This document shows, in pieces, positions 27,302 through 52,261 of a DNA stretch of 64,000 nt. A model generated the notes under the pieces. That model was given only the letters and a program-made list of their open reading frames with translations, made no database searches and was not told the origin of the DNA. Made by a program: the position numbers and the translations under genes. This DNA comes from an uncultured Acidimicrobiales bacterium (lineage in GTDB: Bacteria; Actinomycetota; Acidimicrobiia; Acidimicrobiales; SZUA-35), in NCBI GenBank assembly GCA_937976305.1, contig CALJSB010000013.1:8643-72642 (forward strand). Reading direction: 5' to 3'. Positions within the stretch are counted from its first letter, which is position 1, and the number at the start of each line of letters is the position of its first letter.

Positions 27302-28870
27302 TCATGCGTCGACAGGACGTGGCAGCGAGCTGGGCGACGCCAGCACCGGCCGAAAGAGCTGCTCTCCGGCGTCCCCCCGCAGTGCACTGAGCGCAACCGG
27401 GCGAGGGATCTGAGCCACGCCGACGACGCGCAGATTCGGATTGTCGTAGGGGTCGTCCCACAACACCGAACCCCATTCGTTCTGGAGTAGGTCGTGTTCC
27501 CAGCTCTCGCTGCCGACCGATCGCGACGACGTTTCCAGGTGGGTCATCACTGTCGTGCCGTCGAACACGGTGCGATAGCCCCGAGCACCAAGGCGAAGAC
27601 ACAGGTCGACATCGTTGTAGTTGAGCGGCAACTCCTCGTTCATTCCACCGACCGCGTCCCACTGGTCACGTCGAACCGCAAGGCACGCTCCAGTGACGGC
27701 GAGCATGTTGCAGGCGCCGGCGAGAACCCCATGGTGACCAGCGGAGTCACCGGGGTACCCGTGATAGAGGTGATCAGCGCTGCCGCCGCGAGCGACAACC
27801 CCTCCGTGTTGCAGCCTGCCGTCTGCATACAGGAGTCGAACACCGACGGCACCGACATCAGGCACTTCGGTACGGGCGACGAGCCGTTCGATCCAGTCAG
27901 GCGTCACTACTTCGGTGTCGTCGTTGAGCAACACAACGACCTCGCCTCGGGCATGTTCGACTCCGAGGTTGCACGTGGCGGCGAAGTTGAACGGCCGCGT
28001 GTCACGGATGACTCGCACCCGATCATCGATGGCAGCCAGACGCTCGCCGAGCTCGTCAGCACTCGTCGCGTCGATCACCGCGACCACTTCGTAGTTGGGG
28101 TACGTCGAATGTTCGACGACCGATGCGACCGCGTTCGTGACCAGCTCGACCTCGGCCCCTCGAACGGTGCGGAACGATCCGCCCGTCGGCACGATCAGGC
28201 TCACAACCGGAAGCGACCTGAGCTTGGGCTGGTAGGCAGCGACCTGTTCGCAGGTGGCATGGACTTCGGCCTCGATCGGCAGTCCAATTCGTTCGGCGTG
28301 CCGGGTCACTGCGATGGGATCGAGGTCGTCGGCCCGGGCGGCACCGTCCTCACGGCGGATCGAGGCCACGAATCTCGGAATCGAAACGACCGAGTCGACC
28401 CGCTCAGAAACCCTCAGCGCAAGGTCATGAAGGCCGTTCAGGTGCTCCGCGGTTTCGACGACCAACGTAAGCACGTCGGCTCGGGCCCACCACAAGCCGC
28501 CGATGTACATCTGCGACGTCAGCAGGTCGGGCGACCACGCTGGGCGGTGTAGGCCAGCGCTCCGACCGGCCGTGATGTCGATGGCATCGCCGTAGATGAG
28601 GCCGACCTCGGGGCGTGCGTTTGCGACCTGCTCAGCCCACCCCCACGCTTCTTCACACACCGTGTCGCCAGCCACCATGAACCCGACCAGGTGGTGACGA
28701 TCTGACAGCCCAAGACCGACGAGATCCCAGAGTCGTTCGAGAAGAGTGCCCGAAGACGCTTCGACCACGTTGCTCACCGCAGCCACCGAAGAGATACTCG
28801 CCTTGAGGCCAACGACGTTGGATTCGGCGACCTCCTCAGGGGCGACAACGACGGTCGATCTGCGCACCAT
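27302..28870 (-). CDS. Two-domain GT2 glycosyltransferase, paralog (b); the N-terminal half is degenerate
   Basis: The C-terminal half is intact (VSLIVPTGG ... LLNDDTEVV ... AVTGACL ... NYNDVDLC ... HLETSSR). The N-terminal half aligns to paralog (a), but DNDD becomes AGDT and TDED becomes GDAI. The ATG at 28870 shares one base with the upstream TGA (TGATG). Confidence 0.8.
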   Translation of the reverse strand: MVRRSTVVVAPEEVAESNVVGLKASISSVAAVSNVVEASSGTLLERLWDLVGLGLSDRHHLVGFMVAGDTVCEEAWGWAEQVANARPEVGLIYGDAIDITAGRSAGLHRPAWSPDLLTSQMYIGGLWWARADVLTLVVETAEHLNGLHDLALRVSERVDSVVSIPRFVASIRREDGAARADDLDPIAVTRHAERIGLPIEAEVHATCEQVAAYQPKLRSLPVVSLIVPTGGSFRTVRGAEVELVTNAVASVVEHSTYPNYEVVAVIDATSADELGERLAAIDDRVRVIRDTRPFNFAATCNLGVEHARGEVVVLLNDDTEVVTPDWIERLVARTEVPDVGAVGVRLLYADGRLQHGGVVARGGSADHLYHGYPGDSAGHHGVLAGACNMLAVTGACLAVRRDQWDAVGGMNEELPLNYNDVDLCLRLGARGYRTVFDGTTVMTHLETSSRSVGSESWEHDLLQNEWGSVLWDDPYDNPNLRVVGVAQIPRPVALSALRGDAGEQLFRPVLASPSSLPRPVDA

Positions 28871-48453: not shown

Positions 48454-49281
48454 TCAGGGCGCGGTGACCATCGGCAACACGTCAGAGATCGAGCCTCGTA
48501 GGACCACATCGGCCAGGTCGTCCATGTCGGTTTCGCTGCCGTTGAGGATGATCACCTTGGCCCCGTTCTGCTTGGCGACGGGCACCACGGCGGCGATTGG
48601 GAAGACGGCGAGTGTCGAGCCGATGGCGAAGAGCAGGTCACAATTCTGGGCCGCCGCCTCGGCTCGCTGGAGATCTTCGACGATCAGGTTCTGGCCGAAA
48701 CTGATCGTTGCTGATTTGAGCATGCCGTCACATTCGGGACAGGCCGGATCTTCTTCTCCCTGACGGACTCGGTCGAGGGCCACCTGCATCGGGGCTCGGT
48801 AGTCGCAGCTCAGACACACGACCTCGCGGATCGACCCGTGCACCTCGACAATTCGATCGGGGTCACTCCCTGCGGCGTGGTGCAAGCCATCGATGTTTTG
48901 CGTGATCAGCAGGCTCATCTTGCGTCGCGCCTCGAGATCGAGAAGGGCGAGATGGCCCTTGTTCGGTTCGGCGGACCACACGGGCGAATCGAGGCGCCCT
49001 CGCCAGGCCCTGACACGCACCTCTCGCTCGGCCACGTAGTTCTGCAGGGTCGCCGTCTTCTCGGCCCCCGGGTTTTTGGTCCACACGCCATTCGGACCGC
49101 GGAAGTCGGGGATGCGGCTGTCGGTCGAGATGCCGGCTCCGGTCAGCAGCACGATGCGCGACGCCTGATCGACAAGTTCTCGAGCGTCAGCGATAGCAGC
49201 CGACAGCTGTTCCGCTGCCTCGGCTGCATCACCAACACCAGTGCCATCTCGACTGCCCGTGCCATTTTGACCATCTGCCAT
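48454..49281 (-). CDS. cobB: NAD-dependent protein deacylase (sirtuin, CobB-type)
   Basis: LTGAGISTDSRIPDFRGPNGVW, QNIDGLH, HGS, and the Zn ribbon CLSC...CPEC. Confidence 0.9.
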   Translation of the reverse strand: MADGQNGTGSRDGTGVGDAAEAAEQLSAAIADARELVDQASRIVLLTGAGISTDSRIPDFRGPNGVWTKNPGAEKTATLQNYVAEREVRVRAWRGRLDSPVWSAEPNKGHLALLDLEARRKMSLLITQNIDGLHHAAGSDPDRIVEVHGSIREVVCLSCDYRAPMQVALDRVRQGEEDPACPECDGMLKSATISFGQNLIVEDLQRAEAAAQNCDLLFAIGSTLAVFPIAAVVPVAKQNGAKVIILNGSETDMDDLADVVLRGSISDVLPMVTAP

Positions 49282-49312
49282 GTCCGCATCTTCGCAGCTC
49301 TAGTCTTTCGGC

Positions 49313-50143
49313 GTGACGTCCATCGCTGACCAACTGCGCAACCGAGCTCGCGATACCGCCCATCAGGCCAAGTCGATACTGCGCGACGGTGTCCCTTCGT
49401 CGCTCCGCAACAAGGTCGGCCCGTCGGCGCAAGGCAGCGACCCTGACGCTCGTCTGATTCAGGTGCTCAACGGGCCAGACAAGAACCACCGCTACGACCT
49501 CCAGACCGCCGTGGTCATCGATCGGGTGCTGAGCGGCGACGACGTCGCGATCGACGTTGGCTGCCACGAAGGAGCCATCCTCGATCACATGCTCGCCGCG
49601 GCCCCCGGAGGTCGACATCTTGCCTTCGAGCCGCTCCCCCATCTCCACTCGGCCCTCATCCACAAGTACCGCGACACCGAGATCCACCGCCTCGCCCTTG
49701 TCGCCGAGCCTGCGGGTGATCTCGAGTTTCATCACGTCGTGTCGAACCCGGGTTACAGCGGCCTCAAGGAACGTCGTTACGACCGACCAGACGAAACCGT
49801 CGAGTTGATCTCGGTGCCGACCGCCAAGCTCGACGATCTCGCAGACGATCGCGCTCCGAAGCTGATCAAGATCGACGTTGAAGGGGCCGAACTCGGTGTC
49901 CTCCAAGGCGGAAGCGAGACCATCGGCAAGCACCGGCCGATCGTGGTGTTCGAACACGGTCTGGGCGGGAGCGACGTGTACGGCACCGACCCGAGCGACA
50001 TCGCCGCCTTCTTCGCCGAGCACGACATGGCGGTGTCGCTTCTCGGCACGTGGCTCGAAGACGGCCCGCCGCTCAGCAACGAGCAGTTCTCGGCCCAGTT
50101 CCACCAAGGGCGCAACTACTACTTTCTCGCCCACCCACGCTGA
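49313..50143 (+). CDS. FkbM-family methyltransferase
   Basis: IDVGCHEGA ... FEPLP ... LIKIDVEGAELGVLQG ... VFEHG. GTG start 31 bp from the divergent sirtuin start. Confidence 0.8.
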   Translation: MTSIADQLRNRARDTAHQAKSILRDGVPSSLRNKVGPSAQGSDPDARLIQVLNGPDKNHRYDLQTAVVIDRVLSGDDVAIDVGCHEGAILDHMLAAAPGGRHLAFEPLPHLHSALIHKYRDTEIHRLALVAEPAGDLEFHHVVSNPGYSGLKERRYDRPDETVELISVPTAKLDDLADDRAPKLIKIDVEGAELGVLQGGSETIGKHRPIVVFEHGLGGSDVYGTDPSDIAAFFAEHDMAVSLLGTWLEDGPPLSNEQFSAQFHQGRNYYFLAHPR

Positions 50144-50173
50144 GCCCGATCGAGGCCGAGACGAGCCGCTCTC

Positions 50174-50230
50174 TTGACGTATCGTTTACGTTCAATTACG
50201 TTTCTTTACGTTCGTTGCATGTGATGCAAC
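50174..50230 (+). promoter_or_regulatory. AT-rich promoter/operator: TTGACG-n17-TACGTT, four 10/11-bp-phased ACGT-core repeats, and a perfect 7-3-7 palindrome
   Basis: TGACGTA at 50175; TTACGTT at 50186, 50196 and 50206; GTTGCAT-gtg-ATGCAAC at 50214-50230. The RBS GAGAGAGG (50256-50263) lies 6 nt before the ATG at 50270. Confidence 0.5.
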
Positions 50231-50269
50231 CAAAGCATGCACCGGCGGGTGCTCCGAGAGAGGCAAAGC

Positions 50270-50713
50270 ATGACCAACCATCTCAGTATCGTTCCGACGT
50301 TTCCCGAACCACAGCTACACGTGGTGCCGTGGCCAGACGAGGTGCTCGATCACCTGGGCCATGACCCACTCAGCGACTATGTCGAGATTTTCTGGGTCTC
50401 CGTCTTGGGACCAACGTCGACGCTTCTCGTTCGGCGCTTGGCCAAACAGTTGGCGGCAAACCCCGACGGCTACACCGTGAACTGTGCCGACTGGGCCAAA
50501 GAACTCGGTATCGGCGACAAGGGCGGAAAGAACAGCCCGTTCTGGCGCAGCGTCGAGCGAGCGTGCCGGTTTGGGGCAGCCCGGCGCAATGGCGCCATCT
50601 TGGCCGTGCGTCCAAAGCTGCCGCCGCTCACGATTCGCCAGCTGAACCGGCTGCCAATCCACATGCGAACCATCCACACCGAGTGGGACGGCTCAGCCTC
50701 CCAGACTGCCTAG
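50270..50713 (+). CDS. Conserved-looking hypothetical protein (possible winged-helix/DNA-binding)
   Basis: 147 aa from the ATG at 50270, which has a good RBS (the ORF opens at 50237). Sequence LGPTSTLLVRRLAKQL ... WAKELGIGDKGGKNSPFWRSVERACRF. I cannot name a family confidently. Confidence 0.6.
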   Translation: MTNHLSIVPTFPEPQLHVVPWPDEVLDHLGHDPLSDYVEIFWVSVLGPTSTLLVRRLAKQLAANPDGYTVNCADWAKELGIGDKGGKNSPFWRSVERACRFGAARRNGAILAVRPKLPPLTIRQLNRLPIHMRTIHTEWDGSASQTA

Positions 50714-50731
50714 GACACCAGACTGCCTAGG
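50701..50731. repeat. 14-bp perfect direct repeat (CCAGACTGCCTAGG) x2, 17-bp period, spanning the stop codon
   Basis: Copies at 50701-50714 and 50718-50731. Each contains CCTAGG and a TAG. They are followed by TAGTTAGTAG between the convergent genes. Confidence 0.9.
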
Positions 50732-50734
50732 TAG

Positions 50735-52261
50735 TTAGTAGGCGCCGTCTGACTTCAGCACCGCGGGAATGGTGCGAGCCAAGATCGTCAGATCAACAAC
50801 GAGTGACCAGTTGTCGACGTAGTACAGATCGAGGCGCGTGTATTCCTCGAACGTGGTTTCGCTGCGCCCGGACACCTGCCACATGCCAGTGATACCGGGC
50901 TTCACTCGAAGACGACCATAGAGGTCCTCGTCCCAGGCAGACATCTCCGACGCCAGCGCTGGTCGTGGACCGACCAAGCTCATCTCGCCCTTGATGACGT
51001 TGAACAGCTGAGGGAGTTCGTCGAGCGAGGTCTTGCGGAGGAATGCGCCGACCTTGGTGATGCGCGGGTCATCCTTCATCTTGAAGAGCGGCCCGGCACC
51101 TTCGTTGTCTTCTTGCAACTCGGCGAGGATCTCTTCGGCGTTGATTACCATCGTGCGGAACTTCATCACATCGAACGGCTCGCCGTCCTTGCCGACTCGT
51201 GACTGCTTGAAGATCACCGGGCCCTCGCTGTCGCGCCGGACGGCGATCCAGAGCAGAGCGAGAACCGGTGAGAGGCAGAGGACACCGAGCGACGCGAGGG
51301 TGAAGTCAAAGGTTCGCTTTGCAACAGCTCGCCACCCGTGCCGCTGCACAGGTTCGACATAGACAACGGGGAAACGTCCAAGCGGTCGGACGGTGAGGCG
51401 TGATGGGTCGATGTCAGCCAGCGTCGAACTGAGCTCAACGTGGATGCCAGCCTCAATGAGATCTCGAATCAGGCGGTTGCTGTGGCGAGCCTCGATGGCG
51501 GTTGCCGCAATGACGACACCTCCGGCATCGGCGTCACGGGCCGCTTGCAGGACCCGAGTGGTGAGCTCATTGGGGTTGCCAACTCGAGTCGGATCGATTG
51601 TGTCGACAACGTCGTAGCCGAGGTGGGTCTCCTCGTCGAACATCTTGGCGAGCAACTGGCTCTCGAGATTGTCTCCGATGAGCAAGACCTGGCGCTGCAG
51701 TTCGCCCTTGGCCCGCATCGTGGCAAAACGTCGGCGCATGACTTCTCGCTCGCCGATCAAACCAATCGCTCCAAAGCTCGCGGCCACAGCCAGCCAGAGT
51801 CGGTCGACCTCCAGATCGAAGGTGAACGCAGCAGCAGCAACCGAGGCCGTGGCGAGAATGCCAGAGTCGAGAATGCGGCGGATCTCATCAGAACGCCGGG
51901 TGATGAATCGGGATGCGTAGAGCCGGAAGCGGCCCATGAACGCGGCCCACCCCACGAGCAGAATCGCTGCTCCAATCACGAAATCGCTACCGCCGGGACG
52001 AACAATAGCTGCGACCAAGAGGCCAGCAAGAGCAACAAGCAGGTCGACACCGACCTGTACCAACTTTGCCTTCGAGGCGCGCGGAGCTCGCACCGTCGGC
52101 CGAATGTTGTTGTTTACTCCACGGTCGATGACTGCCACTGATGTCGTCCCACTCTGCACCACGCTGAAAATCAGCGTTGGAGCGTGTGGACTCTCCATCG
52201 GCGCATTGCGTCGCGAAATGAAGCTGGTTGACCCAGGCCTCCCGATCTCGGCTGAGTACAA
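50735..52261 (-). CDS. Polyprenyl-phosphate glycosylphosphotransferase (large WbaP/CpsE-type initiating sugar transferase)
   Basis: N-terminal TM block, central Rossmann-like region, and a C-terminal bacterial sugar transferase domain (LDELPQLFNVIKGEMSLVGPRP ... RPGITGMWQVSGRS). The start is uncertain; an alternative ATG lies at 52198. Confidence 0.9.
   Translation of the reverse strand: MYSAEIGRPGSTSFISRRNAPMESPHAPTLIFSVVQSGTTSVAVIDRGVNNNIRPTVRAPRASKAKLVQVGVDLLVALAGLLVAAIVRPGGSDFVIGAAILLVGWAAFMGRFRLYASRFITRRSDEIRRILDSGILATASVAAAAFTFDLEVDRLWLAVAASFGAIGLIGEREVMRRRFATMRAKGELQRQVLLIGDNLESQLLAKMFDEETHLGYDVVDTIDPTRVGNPNELTTRVLQAARDADAGGVVIAATAIEARHSNRLIRDLIEAGIHVELSSTLADIDPSRLTVRPLGRFPVVYVEPVQRHGWRAVAKRTFDFTLASLGVLCLSPVLALLWIAVRRDSEGPVIFKQSRVGKDGEPFDVMKFRTMVINAEEILAELQEDNEGAGPLFKMKDDPRITKVGAFLRKTSLDELPQLFNVIKGEMSLVGPRPALASEMSAWDEDLYGRLRVKPGITGMWQVSGRSETTFEEYTRLDLYYVDNWSLVVDLTILARTIPAVLKSDGAY

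What the first reader, a model, noticed from the sequence alone, without database searches (positions are those of the whole stretch)
50174..50240. AT-rich promoter with four helically phased ACGT-core repeats and a perfect 7-3-7 palindrome
This stretch stands out in an otherwise GC-rich window. It reads TTGACGTATCG TTTACGTTCA ATTACGTTTC TTTACGTTC, with ACGT cores at 50177, 50188, 50198 and 50208 (spacing 11, 10, 10 bp, so all on one helix face). It is followed immediately by GTTGCAT-GTG-ATGCAAC (50214-50230) and GCATGC (50235-50240). TTGACG-n17-TACGTT fits a sigma-70-type -35/-10 pair, which would place the palindrome at the transcription start. The downstream ORF (50270-50713) has a strong RBS and a helix-rich, basic segment, so it could be an autoregulator. 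The arrangement looks like a cooperative multi-site operator or an iteron array.
Basis: seen in the sequence. Interest (0 to 1): 0.55.

Follow-up and report, generated by a model that had tools for sequence, protein, structure and literature searches.

The report
Phased-repeat promoter of orphan winged-helix gene
This AT-rich stretch is the promoter of a small, uncharacterised winged-helix protein found throughout Acidimicrobiales bacteria; its 10-bp repeats recur, with different sequences, in front of the same gene in many relatives, so they are most likely a docking array for a repressor, possibly the protein itself.

Summary
The ACGT cores, the three TTACGTT copies and the 7-3-7 palindrome sit exactly where stated. 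The four-core chain never appears in 200 shuffles, and this is the most AT-rich 67 nt in the 64 kb window. TTGACG-N17-TACGTT is a genuine sigma-A-type promoter: the -35 is conserved in about 60% of 80 orthologous loci, and in two relatives the same TACGTT lies 7-8 nt before a leaderless ATG, which puts the start near 50208-50210. Only repeat units 2 and 3 are conserved in the closest relatives. Unit 1 and the palindrome are not, and the first "ACGT" is just the flank of the -35. Across Acidimicrobiales, however, 33% of 49 orthologous promoters carry a direct repeat of at least 8/10 identity at a period of exactly 10 bp (1.6% in shuffles), and no other period is enriched. These motifs occur only upstream of this gene in 590 kb. 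The gene encodes a family with no sequence match (no Pfam, NCBIfam or PDB hit) whose confident model is a winged helix of the DnaD/replisome-organiser N-domain type. The best reading is a phased direct-repeat operator over the core promoter, probably autoregulatory. Binding is inferred, not shown. An iteron or origin reading is not supported.

The parts
49313..50143 (+). Upstream gene: FkbM-type methyltransferase. Its stop codon marks the 5' edge of the 126-bp intergenic region.
   Evidence: Pfam PF05050, E=4e-18; ORF list.
50174..50179 (+). -35 hexamer TTGACG, inside the conserved block CTCTTGACG.
   Evidence: Invariant in the window, L001, L007 and L002. A [C/G]TTGAC is found in 49 of 81 orthologous upstream regions.
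50185..50194 (+). Repeat unit 1, TTTACGTTCA, in the promoter spacer.
   Evidence: It is absent in L001, L007 and L002. A homologous unit is present in L036, L099, L031, L021 and L019/L020.
50195..50204 (+). Repeat unit 2, ATTACGTTTC. It contains the -10 hexamer TACGTT (50197-50202), 17 nt after the -35.
   Evidence: Invariant in close relatives. The same TACGTT lies 7-8 nt upstream of the ATG in the leaderless orthologs L036 and L099. It fits the actinobacterial TANNNT consensus (PMC3898074).
50205..50214 (+). Repeat unit 3, TTTACGTTCG. It covers the predicted transcription start (about 50208-50210).
   Evidence: TTTAC is invariant and TTTACGTTC is kept in L001 and L007. The start position is inferred from the -10 and from the leaderless relatives; it has not been mapped.
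50214..50230 (+). Perfect 7-3-7 palindrome GTTGCAT-GTG-ATGCAAC, at about +5 to +21 of the predicted transcript. It is specific to this lineage.
   Evidence: Unique in the window. Not conserved in L001, L007 or L002. A 5'-terminal hairpin is predicted in only 3 of 11 subclade members. Chance level is given.
50239..50252 (+). Conserved 5'-UTR hairpin GCACC-GGCG-GGTGC, inside the invariant block ATGCACC(T)GGCGGGTGC.
   Evidence: Identical in four lineages, with the loop 4 or 5 nt long. Predicted in both the MFE and centroid folds.
50256..50263 (+). Shine-Dalgarno-like GAGAGAGG, 6 nt before the ATG.
   Evidence: Sequence; the purine-rich block is conserved.
50270..50713 (+). 147-aa ORF, a winged-helix protein from a family with no sequence match. 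It is monocistronic, because the next gene is convergent.
   Evidence: The upstream ATG at 50237 is out of frame in L002. No Pfam, NCBIfam, PHROGs or PDB sequence hit. AF2 pLDDT 87. Fold hits to DnaB(1-300)/DnaD-type and to a phage replicon-initiation protein. The family has 2586 clusters at 50% identity.
50735..52261 (-). Convergent downstream gene: a bacterial sugar transferase.
   Evidence: Pfam PF02397, E=8e-69.

Best explanation
The stretch is the core promoter and 5' leader of a monocistronic gene for a small winged-helix protein that is conserved across Acidimicrobiales. RNA polymerase with the housekeeping sigma factor uses TTGACG (50174-50179) and TACGTT (50197-50202) and starts near 50208-50210; this is supported by conservation and by leaderless relatives. 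Three head-to-tail 10-bp units, TTTACGTTCA, ATTACGTTTC and TTTACGTTCG (50185-50214), lie on one face of the helix and cover the spacer, the -10 and the start site. They form an operator on which a DNA-binding protein multimerises cooperatively and blocks the promoter; this is inferred from their position and from the conserved period-10 architecture. The most likely binder is the gene's own product, which would give negative autoregulation. This step is also inferred: the array is found only at this gene, the repeat sequence changes clade by clade along with the protein's recognition helix, and the product has a winged-helix fold. The palindrome and the GCACC/GGTGC hairpin belong to the transcribed leader. 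Only the GCACC/GGTGC hairpin is conserved.
For: Promoter. The blocks CTCTTGACG and TTCAAyTACGTTTmTTTAC are invariant among the window and relatives of 93%, 93% and 71% identity, while the flanks diverge. TTGAC is conserved in 49 of 81 loci. L036 and L099 have TTGCAT-N17-TACGTT followed 7-8 nt later by an ATG that opens a conserved coding N-terminus with third-position changes, so they are leaderless. TANNNT centred 7-12 bp upstream of the start is the actinobacterial norm (PMC3898074). Array. Of 49 orthologous promoters, 33% have a direct repeat of at least 8/10 identity at a period of exactly 10, against 1.6% in shuffles, with no excess at periods 5-9 or 11-16. The repeats begin 8-40 nt after the -35, that is over the spacer, the -10, the start and the early transcribed region. 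The three-unit test is significant in 21% of 80 loci. Exclusivity. TACGT-N5/6-TACGT, TGAAA-N5/6-TGAAA and TGAAAnnnCAyGA occur in 590 kb (102 loci, both strands) only on the sense strand just upstream of this gene. The array is unique in the 64 kb window. Binder. The protein model is confident (pLDDT 87) and has a winged-helix core. Arginines R55, R97 and R114 are invariant or nearly invariant. The recognition-helix sequence splits by clade in step with the repeat type: SPFWRSxxRxCRFG with TACGT units, SPFMRALxRCCQF with TGAAA..CACGA units, and SPLARS with TGAAAT-N4-TGAAAT units. No regulator gene is a consistent neighbour. There is mechanistic precedent for wHTH proteins multimerising head-to-tail on variable numbers of 9-bp direct repeats (BldC, PMC5859096).
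Against: There are no experimental data: neither the start site nor any binding has been shown. Unit 1 is missing in the three closest relatives, so the number of sites is not conserved. The link between repeat type and recognition helix is confounded by phylogeny. Many orthologous promoters (about two thirds) fall below the 8/10 repeat threshold, and the 49 promoters are not phylogenetically independent. The best structural matches are replication proteins (the DnaB/DnaD N-domain, whose known role is mainly oligomerisation), not transcription factors, and they are weak (E about 0.01, TM 0.43-0.62). In some lineages the repeats lie wholly downstream of the likely start, so a role at the RNA level there is not excluded. 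Only a few kb per genome could be scanned, so other genomic sites for the same motif cannot be ruled out.
Confidence: 0.5

Rival explanations
1. The repeats are an operator, but for a different trans-acting regulator encoded elsewhere, for example a response regulator or a BldC-like protein that binds direct repeats. The 147-aa protein would be its target, not its own regulator.
For: The position and the period-10 architecture fit any protein that binds direct repeats. OmpR/PhoB-type regulators and BldC bind such arrays (PMC5859096). The best fold matches of the encoded protein are not transcription factors.
Against: The motif is found only at this gene in 590 kb from about 100 genomes. The repeat sequence diverges strongly between clades, which is unusual for sites of a conserved global regulator. 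No regulator gene is consistently adjacent.
Confidence: 0.2
2. No dedicated binding protein is involved. The phased A/T tracts or the tandem -10-like hexamers are promoter architecture. This could be intrinsic curvature that tunes RNA polymerase binding, or a -10-like copy one turn downstream (TACGTT at 50207-50212) that causes sigma-dependent promoter-proximal pausing.
For: Every unit in every clade carries an A3 or T3 tract (TTTAC, TGAAA, GATAAAC). In the window subclade the repeated unit is itself the -10 hexamer. A -10-like element about 10 bp downstream of the true -10 is the known geometry of sigma-70-dependent pause sites (established knowledge of lambda PR'; not tested here).
Against: Identity between adjacent units reaches 8-9 of 10 and extends beyond the A/T tracts, which curvature alone would not maintain. 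In several clades the units lie 15-30 nt downstream of the likely -10 and do not resemble it (L029, L045, L071). The extra unit lies upstream of the -10 in some relatives and downstream in others, which is inconsistent with a pause element.
Confidence: 0.12
3. The repeats are neutral products of replication slippage in an AT-rich promoter and have no function beyond the -35 and -10.
For: The number of units varies even among close relatives, and unit 1 is lost in L001, L007 and L002. The palindrome is similarly unstable.
Against: The period-10 excess is specific (33% against 1.6%, no other period) and recurs in clades with unrelated unit sequences. Slippage gives no reason for exactly 10 bp, or for restriction to this one gene.
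Confidence: 0.1
4. The array is an iteron-like origin or replisome-organiser site bound by a DnaD/replisome-organiser-like protein, in the way phage SPP1 gp38 or plasmid Rep proteins bind direct repeats in or next to their own genes.
For: The best structural matches are Geobacillus primosomal DnaB(1-300) (prob 0.99) and a Brevibacillus phage 'putative replicon initiation protein' (TMq 0.62, rmsd 2.9 A). SPP1 gp38 binds direct repeats located within its own gene (PMC6316719). A 37%-identical paralog sits on an Iamia plasmid near a MobF relaxase.
Against: The units are 10 bp, not about 17-22 bp. There is no excess of DnaA boxes and no GC-skew switch. The gene is a chromosomal core gene with conserved synteny (MoeZ, Sir2, PepA) in many genomes. 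The protein lacks a DDBH2-type C-terminal domain and has no sequence similarity to DnaD or Rep families. There are no homologs in 50,697 phage records. The array overlaps a promoter that leaderless relatives pin down.
Confidence: 0.05

Closest known systems
BldC-type head-to-tail direct-repeat operators (Streptomyces BldC; PMC5859096)
   Same: Both have short units of about 9-10 bp arranged as direct repeats on one helix face. Both have a variable number of units (2-4) at different sites or in different lineages, AT-rich cores, and a small wHTH-only protein as the proposed binder.
   Different: BldC is a 68-aa MerR-like protein with a large regulon and a 9-bp AATTxxxxC unit. Here the period is exactly 10 bp, the motif is seen only at one gene, and the protein has no sequence relation to MerR or BldC (no Pfam hit). 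Binding has not been shown.
OmpR/PhoB-family response-regulator boxes (e.g. CpxR GTAAA-N5-GTAAA, the TorR decamer 'tor boxes'); recalled from knowledge, not tested
   Same: Both are tandem direct repeats at a 10-11 bp period read by winged-helix domains. The window array reads TTTAC-N5-ATTAC-N5-TTTAC, the complement of a GTAAA-N5-GTAAA pattern.
   Different: These boxes usually lie upstream of or at the -35 and activate transcription. Here the array covers the -10 and the start site. The encoded protein has no receiver domain and no Trans_reg_C hit.
DnaD / Gram-positive DnaB N-terminal winged-helix domain and phage replisome-organiser N-domains
   Same: These are the best fold matches in the PDB (5wtn) and in BFVD (phage SecTim467 replicon initiation protein): a winged helix with an N-terminal strand/helix extension and a C-terminal helix. 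Replisome organisers bind direct repeats near or inside their own gene.
   Different: There is no sequence similarity, even with a 79-sequence profile, and no C-terminal DDBH2 domain. The E-values are only about 0.01. The context is a chromosomal, non-origin locus.
Actinobacterial sigma-A promoters (TANNNT -10; leaderless mRNAs; PMC3898074)
   Same: The -10 TACGTT fits TANNNT. A purine start 6-8 nt downstream is available. Some orthologs are leaderless.
   Different: The -35 is unusually well conserved and close to consensus (CCCTTGACA/G), whereas no -35 motif could be found in M. tuberculosis. The -10 hexamer is duplicated in tandem.
Plasmid iterons with autoregulated Rep genes
   Same: Both have direct repeats next to a winged-helix gene, and autoregulation is a theme in both.
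   Different: The unit length, the origin features, the location on a mobile element and the Rep sequence families all fail (see the membership test).

Membership tests
Sigma-70/sigma-A-type promoter | A -35-like hexamer and a -10 hexamer (actinobacterial TANNNT) separated by 16-18 bp | tested here: met
   TTGACG (50174-50179), a 17-nt spacer, then TACGTT (50197-50202). The strict TATAAT-based scan did not call it, because only 3 of 6 positions match.
Sigma-70/sigma-A-type promoter | Both hexamers conserved upstream of orthologous genes while the flanks diverge | tested here: met
   Both are invariant in the window, L001, L007 and L002. TTGAC is present in 49 of 81 loci.
Sigma-70/sigma-A-type promoter | The -10 is correctly placed relative to a known 5' end | tested here: met
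   Indirect evidence: in the leaderless orthologs L036 and L099 the TACGTT is 7-8 nt before the conserved ATG.
Sigma-70/sigma-A-type promoter | An experimentally mapped transcription start | not testable with these tools
   No transcriptome or 5'-end data are available for this organism.
Phased direct-repeat operator (BldC / response-regulator type) | At least two similar units in the same orientation, spaced about one helical turn apart | tested here: met
   The window has three units at a 10-bp period. Period 10 is specifically enriched in orthologs, 33% against 1.6%.
Phased direct-repeat operator (BldC / response-regulator type) | The array is conserved at orthologous promoters | tested here: met
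   The architecture is conserved, but the unit sequence and unit number vary. Units 2 and 3 are kept in close relatives and unit 1 is not.
Phased direct-repeat operator (BldC / response-regulator type) | Demonstrated cooperative protein binding | not testable with these tools
   Needs EMSA, footprinting or ChIP.
Phased direct-repeat operator (BldC / response-regulator type) | The binder belongs to the MerR-like BldC family or the OmpR/PhoB family | tested here: not met
   The neighbouring protein has no Pfam or NCBIfam hit at all. So the locus may work like these systems but is not a member of them.
Plasmid/phage iteron array | Repeat units of about 17-22 bp | tested here: not met
   The units are 10 bp.
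Plasmid/phage iteron array | Adjacent origin features: DnaA boxes, a DUE, a GC-skew switch | tested here: not met
   DnaA-box-like sites number 14 against 10.8 expected, with none in the intergenic region. Cumulative GC skew is monotonic across the locus.
Plasmid/phage iteron array | Located on a mobile replicon with a Rep-family initiator | tested here: not met
   Chromosomal synteny is conserved. No phage homologs were found. The single plasmid hit is a 37% paralog. There is no Rep Pfam hit.
Palindromic dimer operator (MarR/GntR/TetR style) | An inverted repeat conserved upstream of orthologs | tested here: not met
   The palindrome at 50214-50230 is absent in L001, L007 and L002. Hairpins are predicted in only 3 of 11 subclade members. 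Chance frequency is given.
DnaD/DnaB (DDBH1) winged-helix family | Fold similarity to the N-terminal domain | tested here: inconclusive
DnaD/DnaB (DDBH1) winged-helix family | Sequence-profile membership and a C-terminal DDBH2 DNA-binding domain | tested here: not met
   There are no Pfam or PDB sequence hits, even with a 79-sequence profile. The protein ends after one C-terminal helix.
Known cis-regulatory RNA (Rfam) | A covariance-model match | tested here: not met
   No Rfam match at E<=1 in 49000-52000. The leader fold has z=0 against shuffles.

The most novel reading that the evidence does not exclude
The 147-aa protein founds a family with no sequence match that spans the Acidimicrobiia and has the DnaD/replisome-organiser N-domain fold. 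It polymerises head-to-tail on 10-bp direct repeats laid over its own promoter, and operator and recognition helix co-evolve clade by clade. This would be a new structural family of direct-repeat-binding autoregulators, or possibly a nucleoid- or replication-associated protein that titrates itself, in a bacterial class with almost no characterised regulators.
Probability: 0.3. Interest if true: 0.6.

Novelty: new member of a known kind. Interest (0 to 1): 0.42.

Why it matters
Acidimicrobiia are abundant in soils, oceans and wastewater, yet almost nothing is known about how they regulate genes. This locus offers three things. First, it gives a well-supported sigma-A-type promoter for the class, with an unusually strong -35 and with leaderless variants. 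Second, it gives a gene-specific cis-element with a sharply defined 10-bp period, conserved in architecture across about 100 genomes. Third, it gives a large protein family (over 2500 clusters at 50% identity) with no annotation, a confident winged-helix model and an obvious candidate DNA target. That makes a simple experiment (protein plus a 60-bp probe) likely to assign a first function to the family. If the protein does bind, the clade-specific pairs of repeat and recognition helix would form a natural data set for studying how wHTH specificity evolves on direct repeats. If it does not, the finding reduces to an ordinary promoter with some decoration.

Tried and rejected
- **RNA element:** Rfam found nothing at E<=1, so no known RNA element is present. 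The predicted leader folds no better than shuffles (z=-0.01). A 5'-terminal hairpin is predicted in only 3 of 11 subclade members, so the palindrome is rejected as a conserved RNA or DNA element.
- **Palindrome significance:** it was rejected on frequency, with nine perfect 7-3-7 palindromes in the window.
- **Generic promoter/terminator scan:** it found nothing. It is uninformative for actinobacterial -10 elements.
- **Other genomic sites for the motif:** there are none in the 64 kb. The one extra TTACGTT (28464) and a GAAATGACACGA (25881) lie inside coding regions.
- **Origin or iteron reading:** rejected.
- **Phage or plasmid origin of the gene:** there are no phage hits and a single distant plasmid paralog.
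- **Family assignment by sequence:** Pfam, NCBIfam, PHROGs and PDB all returned nothing. All 120 best homologs are 'hypothetical protein'.
- **Metagenome scan for closer relatives:** it yielded only 11 loci, none closer than 62% identity, so fine-scale footprinting within the window's own lineage rests on three relatives.
- **CTTCCCC box:** pairing between the CTTCCCC box and the Shine-Dalgarno sequence in distant orthologs is predicted in only 9 of 32 and was left as a side note.
- **Common motif across clades:** I considered whether TACGT-type and TGAAA-type units are one motif (T-R-C-R-T-K-n-A-A-n, or the reverse complement TGAAnGTnnA). The resemblance is too weak to claim.

Full report

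Yes. The sequence at 50174-50240 reads exactly as described. ACGT cores start at 50177, 50188, 50198 and 50208, and the palindrome GTTGCAT-GTG-ATGCAAC lies at 50214-50230. TTACGTT occurs three times here and only once elsewhere in the 64 kb, at 28464 inside a coding region. TTAC-N6-TTAC-N6-TTAC is unique, with 0.01 expected. A chain of four ACGT cores at 10/11-bp spacing was never produced in 200 dinucleotide shuffles. The stretch is the most AT-rich 67-nt window in the whole 64 kb, at 40% GC against 62.8%.

The palindrome is perfect but not exceptional. Nine perfect 7-3-7 palindromes exist in the window, and a shuffled 126-nt region contains such a stem 2.5% of the time.

**2. Context**

The stretch lies in a 126-bp gap between an FkbM-type methyltransferase gene (49313-50143, +) and a 147-aa ORF (50270-50713, +). 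A convergent sugar-transferase gene follows the ORF, so the small gene is monocistronic. The longer 158-aa reading from ATG 50237 is not the real start, because that ATG is out of frame in the 71%-identical ortholog.

The organism is an Acidimicrobiales bacterium. All 80 best genomic matches are Acidimicrobiales or Actinomycetota MAGs. The gene keeps a conserved chromosomal neighbourhood of MoeZ-like ThiF/rhodanese, Sir2 and PepA.

**3. The protein**

The protein has no Pfam, NCBIfam, PHROGs or PDB sequence match, even when searched with a 79-sequence profile. Every named homolog is 'hypothetical protein'. The family is nevertheless large: 2586 clusters at 50% identity with E<=1e-3.

An AlphaFold2 model built on 11 sequences is confident (pLDDT 87, pTM 0.78). 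It shows a winged helix with an N-terminal strand/helix extension and a C-terminal helix. The best structural neighbours are:
- Geobacillus primosomal DnaB(1-300), a DnaD-type N-domain (E 0.011, prob 0.99, TMq 0.43);
- a Brevibacillus phage 'putative replicon initiation protein' (TMq 0.62, rmsd 2.9 A).

**4. The promoter**

Alignment with the three closest relatives (93%, 93% and 71% protein identity) shows four invariant blocks in otherwise diverged DNA:
- CTCTTGACG;
- TTCAAyTACGTTTmTTTAC;
- ATGCACC(T)GGCGGGTGC;
- the Shine-Dalgarno sequence plus the ATG.

A [C/G]TTGAC is present in 49 of 81 orthologous upstream regions. The decisive evidence comes from two orthologs of 58-62% identity, L036 and L099. 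They have TTGCAT-N17-TACGTT followed after 7-8 nt by an ATG. That ATG opens a conserved N-terminus (MNHRFVD..) whose codons differ at third positions. These mRNAs are therefore leaderless, and TACGTT is their -10.

This fits the actinobacterial TANNNT consensus, which is centred 7-12 bp upstream of mostly purine starts (PMC3898074). In the window the start should therefore lie at about 50208-50210. The generic scan missed it because TACGTT matches TATAAT at only 3 of 6 positions.

**5. The repeats**

In the window the real units are TTTACGTTCA (50185), ATTACGTTTC (50195, containing the -10) and TTTACGTTCG (50205, covering the start). The first 'ACGT' is only the flank of the -35.

In the closest relatives only units 2 and 3 are kept; unit 1 is replaced by unrelated sequence. 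In more distant members of the same subclade, an extra TACGT unit lies 10 bp from the -10:
- upstream of it in L036, L099, L031, L021 and L019/L020;
- downstream of it in L001 and L007, and weakly in L008 and L014.

Beyond the subclade the unit sequence changes completely, for example:
- TGAAAnnnCA / CAyGA;
- TGAAAT-N4-TGAAAT;
- TAGATAnACA;
- GGAAGTGCAT;
- GAAACAnACT.

The architecture persists. Of 49 promoters aligned on TTGAC, 33% have a direct repeat of at least 8/10 identity at a period of exactly 10, against 1.6% in shuffles. Periods 5-9 and 11-16 show no such excess: 0-6% of promoters against 1-2.4% of shuffles. The repeats begin 8-40 nt after the -35, that is over the spacer, the -10, the start site and the early transcribed region. 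TGAAA is present in 28 of 49 promoters, with 0.8 expected.

In 590 kb from 102 loci, searched on both strands, the patterns TACGT-N5/6-TACGT, TGAAA-N5/6-TGAAA and TGAAAnnnCAyGA occur only on the sense strand just upstream of this gene.

One caveat applies: the 49 promoters are not phylogenetically independent. At least ten clearly different unit types nonetheless show the period-10 repeat.

**6. Mechanism**

A set of head-to-tail units one helical turn apart, covering the -10 and the start, is the geometry of a repressor that multimerises on one face of the DNA. Three lines of evidence make the gene's own winged-helix product the leading candidate:
- The element is specific to this gene.
- The unit sequence turns over quickly between clades.
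- The recognition helix splits in parallel: SPFWRSxxRxCRFG with TACGT units, SPFMRALxRCCQF with TGAAA..CACGA units, and SPLARS with TGAAAT-N4-TGAAAT units.

The third point is confounded by shared ancestry. The closest mechanistic precedent is BldC, a wHTH-only protein that binds variable numbers of 9-bp direct repeats head-to-tail (PMC5859096). OmpR/PhoB-type boxes are similar in geometry. The protein is not a member of either family.

What is shown is the promoter elements and the period-10 conservation. What is inferred is the binding, the cooperativity and the identity of the binder.

**7. The rest of the finding**

The palindrome is not conserved even at 93% protein identity. L001 has a different 9-bp inverted repeat at the same place, and L007 and L002 have none. 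I treat it as a lineage-specific 5'-leader hairpin at most.

GCATGC is incidental. The conserved feature there is the stem GCACC/GGTGC (50239-50252), whose loop is 4 nt in three lineages and 5 nt in the fourth. That tolerance for loop length favours a hairpin over a dimer operator.

The iteron or origin reading fails on several counts:
- the unit length is wrong;
- there is no excess of DnaA boxes and no skew switch;
- the synteny is chromosomal;
- there are no phage homologs.

It keeps a small residual probability because of the replisome-organiser-like fold, and because such proteins do bind direct repeats near their own genes (PMC6316719).

**8. Verdict**

This is a genuine, conserved regulatory region: a sigma-A-type promoter overlaid by a phased direct-repeat array, in front of an unannotated winged-helix family found across the order. 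It is a new example of a known kind of arrangement rather than a new kind of system, and the central functional claim still needs a simple binding experiment. Interest is moderate (0.42).

Noticed in passing
window 50237-50252: The block ATGCACC(T)GGCGGGTGC is invariant in four lineages whose flanks diverge. It forms a 5-bp stem, GCACC/GGTGC, with a 4- or 5-nt loop, about 4 nt upstream of the Shine-Dalgarno sequence. This is possibly a leader hairpin that affects translation or mRNA stability.
   Followed up: partly
window 50701-50714 and 50718-50731: A 14-nt direct repeat, CCAGACTGCCTAGG, with 17-nt spacing straddles the stop codon (TAG 50711-50713) of the 147-aa ORF, just before the end of the convergent gene (50735). 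It looks like a small tandem duplication.
   Followed up: no
window 50231-50239 and 50264-50272: CAAAGCATG occurs twice, 33 nt apart, which gives two in-frame ATGs. The upstream one (50237) has no Shine-Dalgarno sequence, and in L002/L008 it is out of frame and would open a short ORF of about 24 codons overlapping the real start.
   Followed up: partly
Distant orthologous loci, e.g. L063:2920-2990, L071, L055, L064: Most distant orthologs carry a CTTCCCC box 30-60 nt upstream of a GGAGG Shine-Dalgarno sequence (TTCCCC in 14 of 49 promoters, 0.7 expected). MFE folds pair it with the Shine-Dalgarno sequence in 9 of 32 cases, which suggests an anti-SD leader. The window's lineage lacks it.
   Followed up: partly
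L036 about 2860-2920; L099:1440-1520: Two orthologs are leaderless: TACGTT is followed after 7-8 nt by the ATG. So the same gene switches between leadered and leaderless mRNA within the order.
   Followed up: yes
L019, L020, L021 (N-terminal extension of the ortholog): The orthologs carry in-frame 15-nt tandem coding repeats (GAGCCAACCACGACC and variants), giving a variable low-complexity Pro/Thr-rich N-terminal extension.
   Followed up: no
L102 (Iamia sp. SCSIO 61187 plasmid NZ_CP050949.1) 5840-5900 and 5962-6369: A 37%-identical paralog annotated 'hypothetical protein' lies between IS3 transposases near a MobF relaxase, and an identical copy is also recorded on the 5.1-Mb chromosome. Its upstream region has TCGTG three times at a 12-nt period, a different direct-repeat array.
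   Followed up: partly
window 49313-52261 compared with L004 and L006: In other lineages the gene sits directly beside PepA (M17 aminopeptidase). In the window's lineage a polysaccharide-type methyltransferase and a sugar transferase flank it, which suggests local insertion around a stable core gene.
   Followed up: no
L028 about 2740-2790: This ortholog has two CGACGTTC units 16 bp apart upstream of the -35 rather than over the -10. The ACGTTC core is the same but the placement differs.
   Followed up: no
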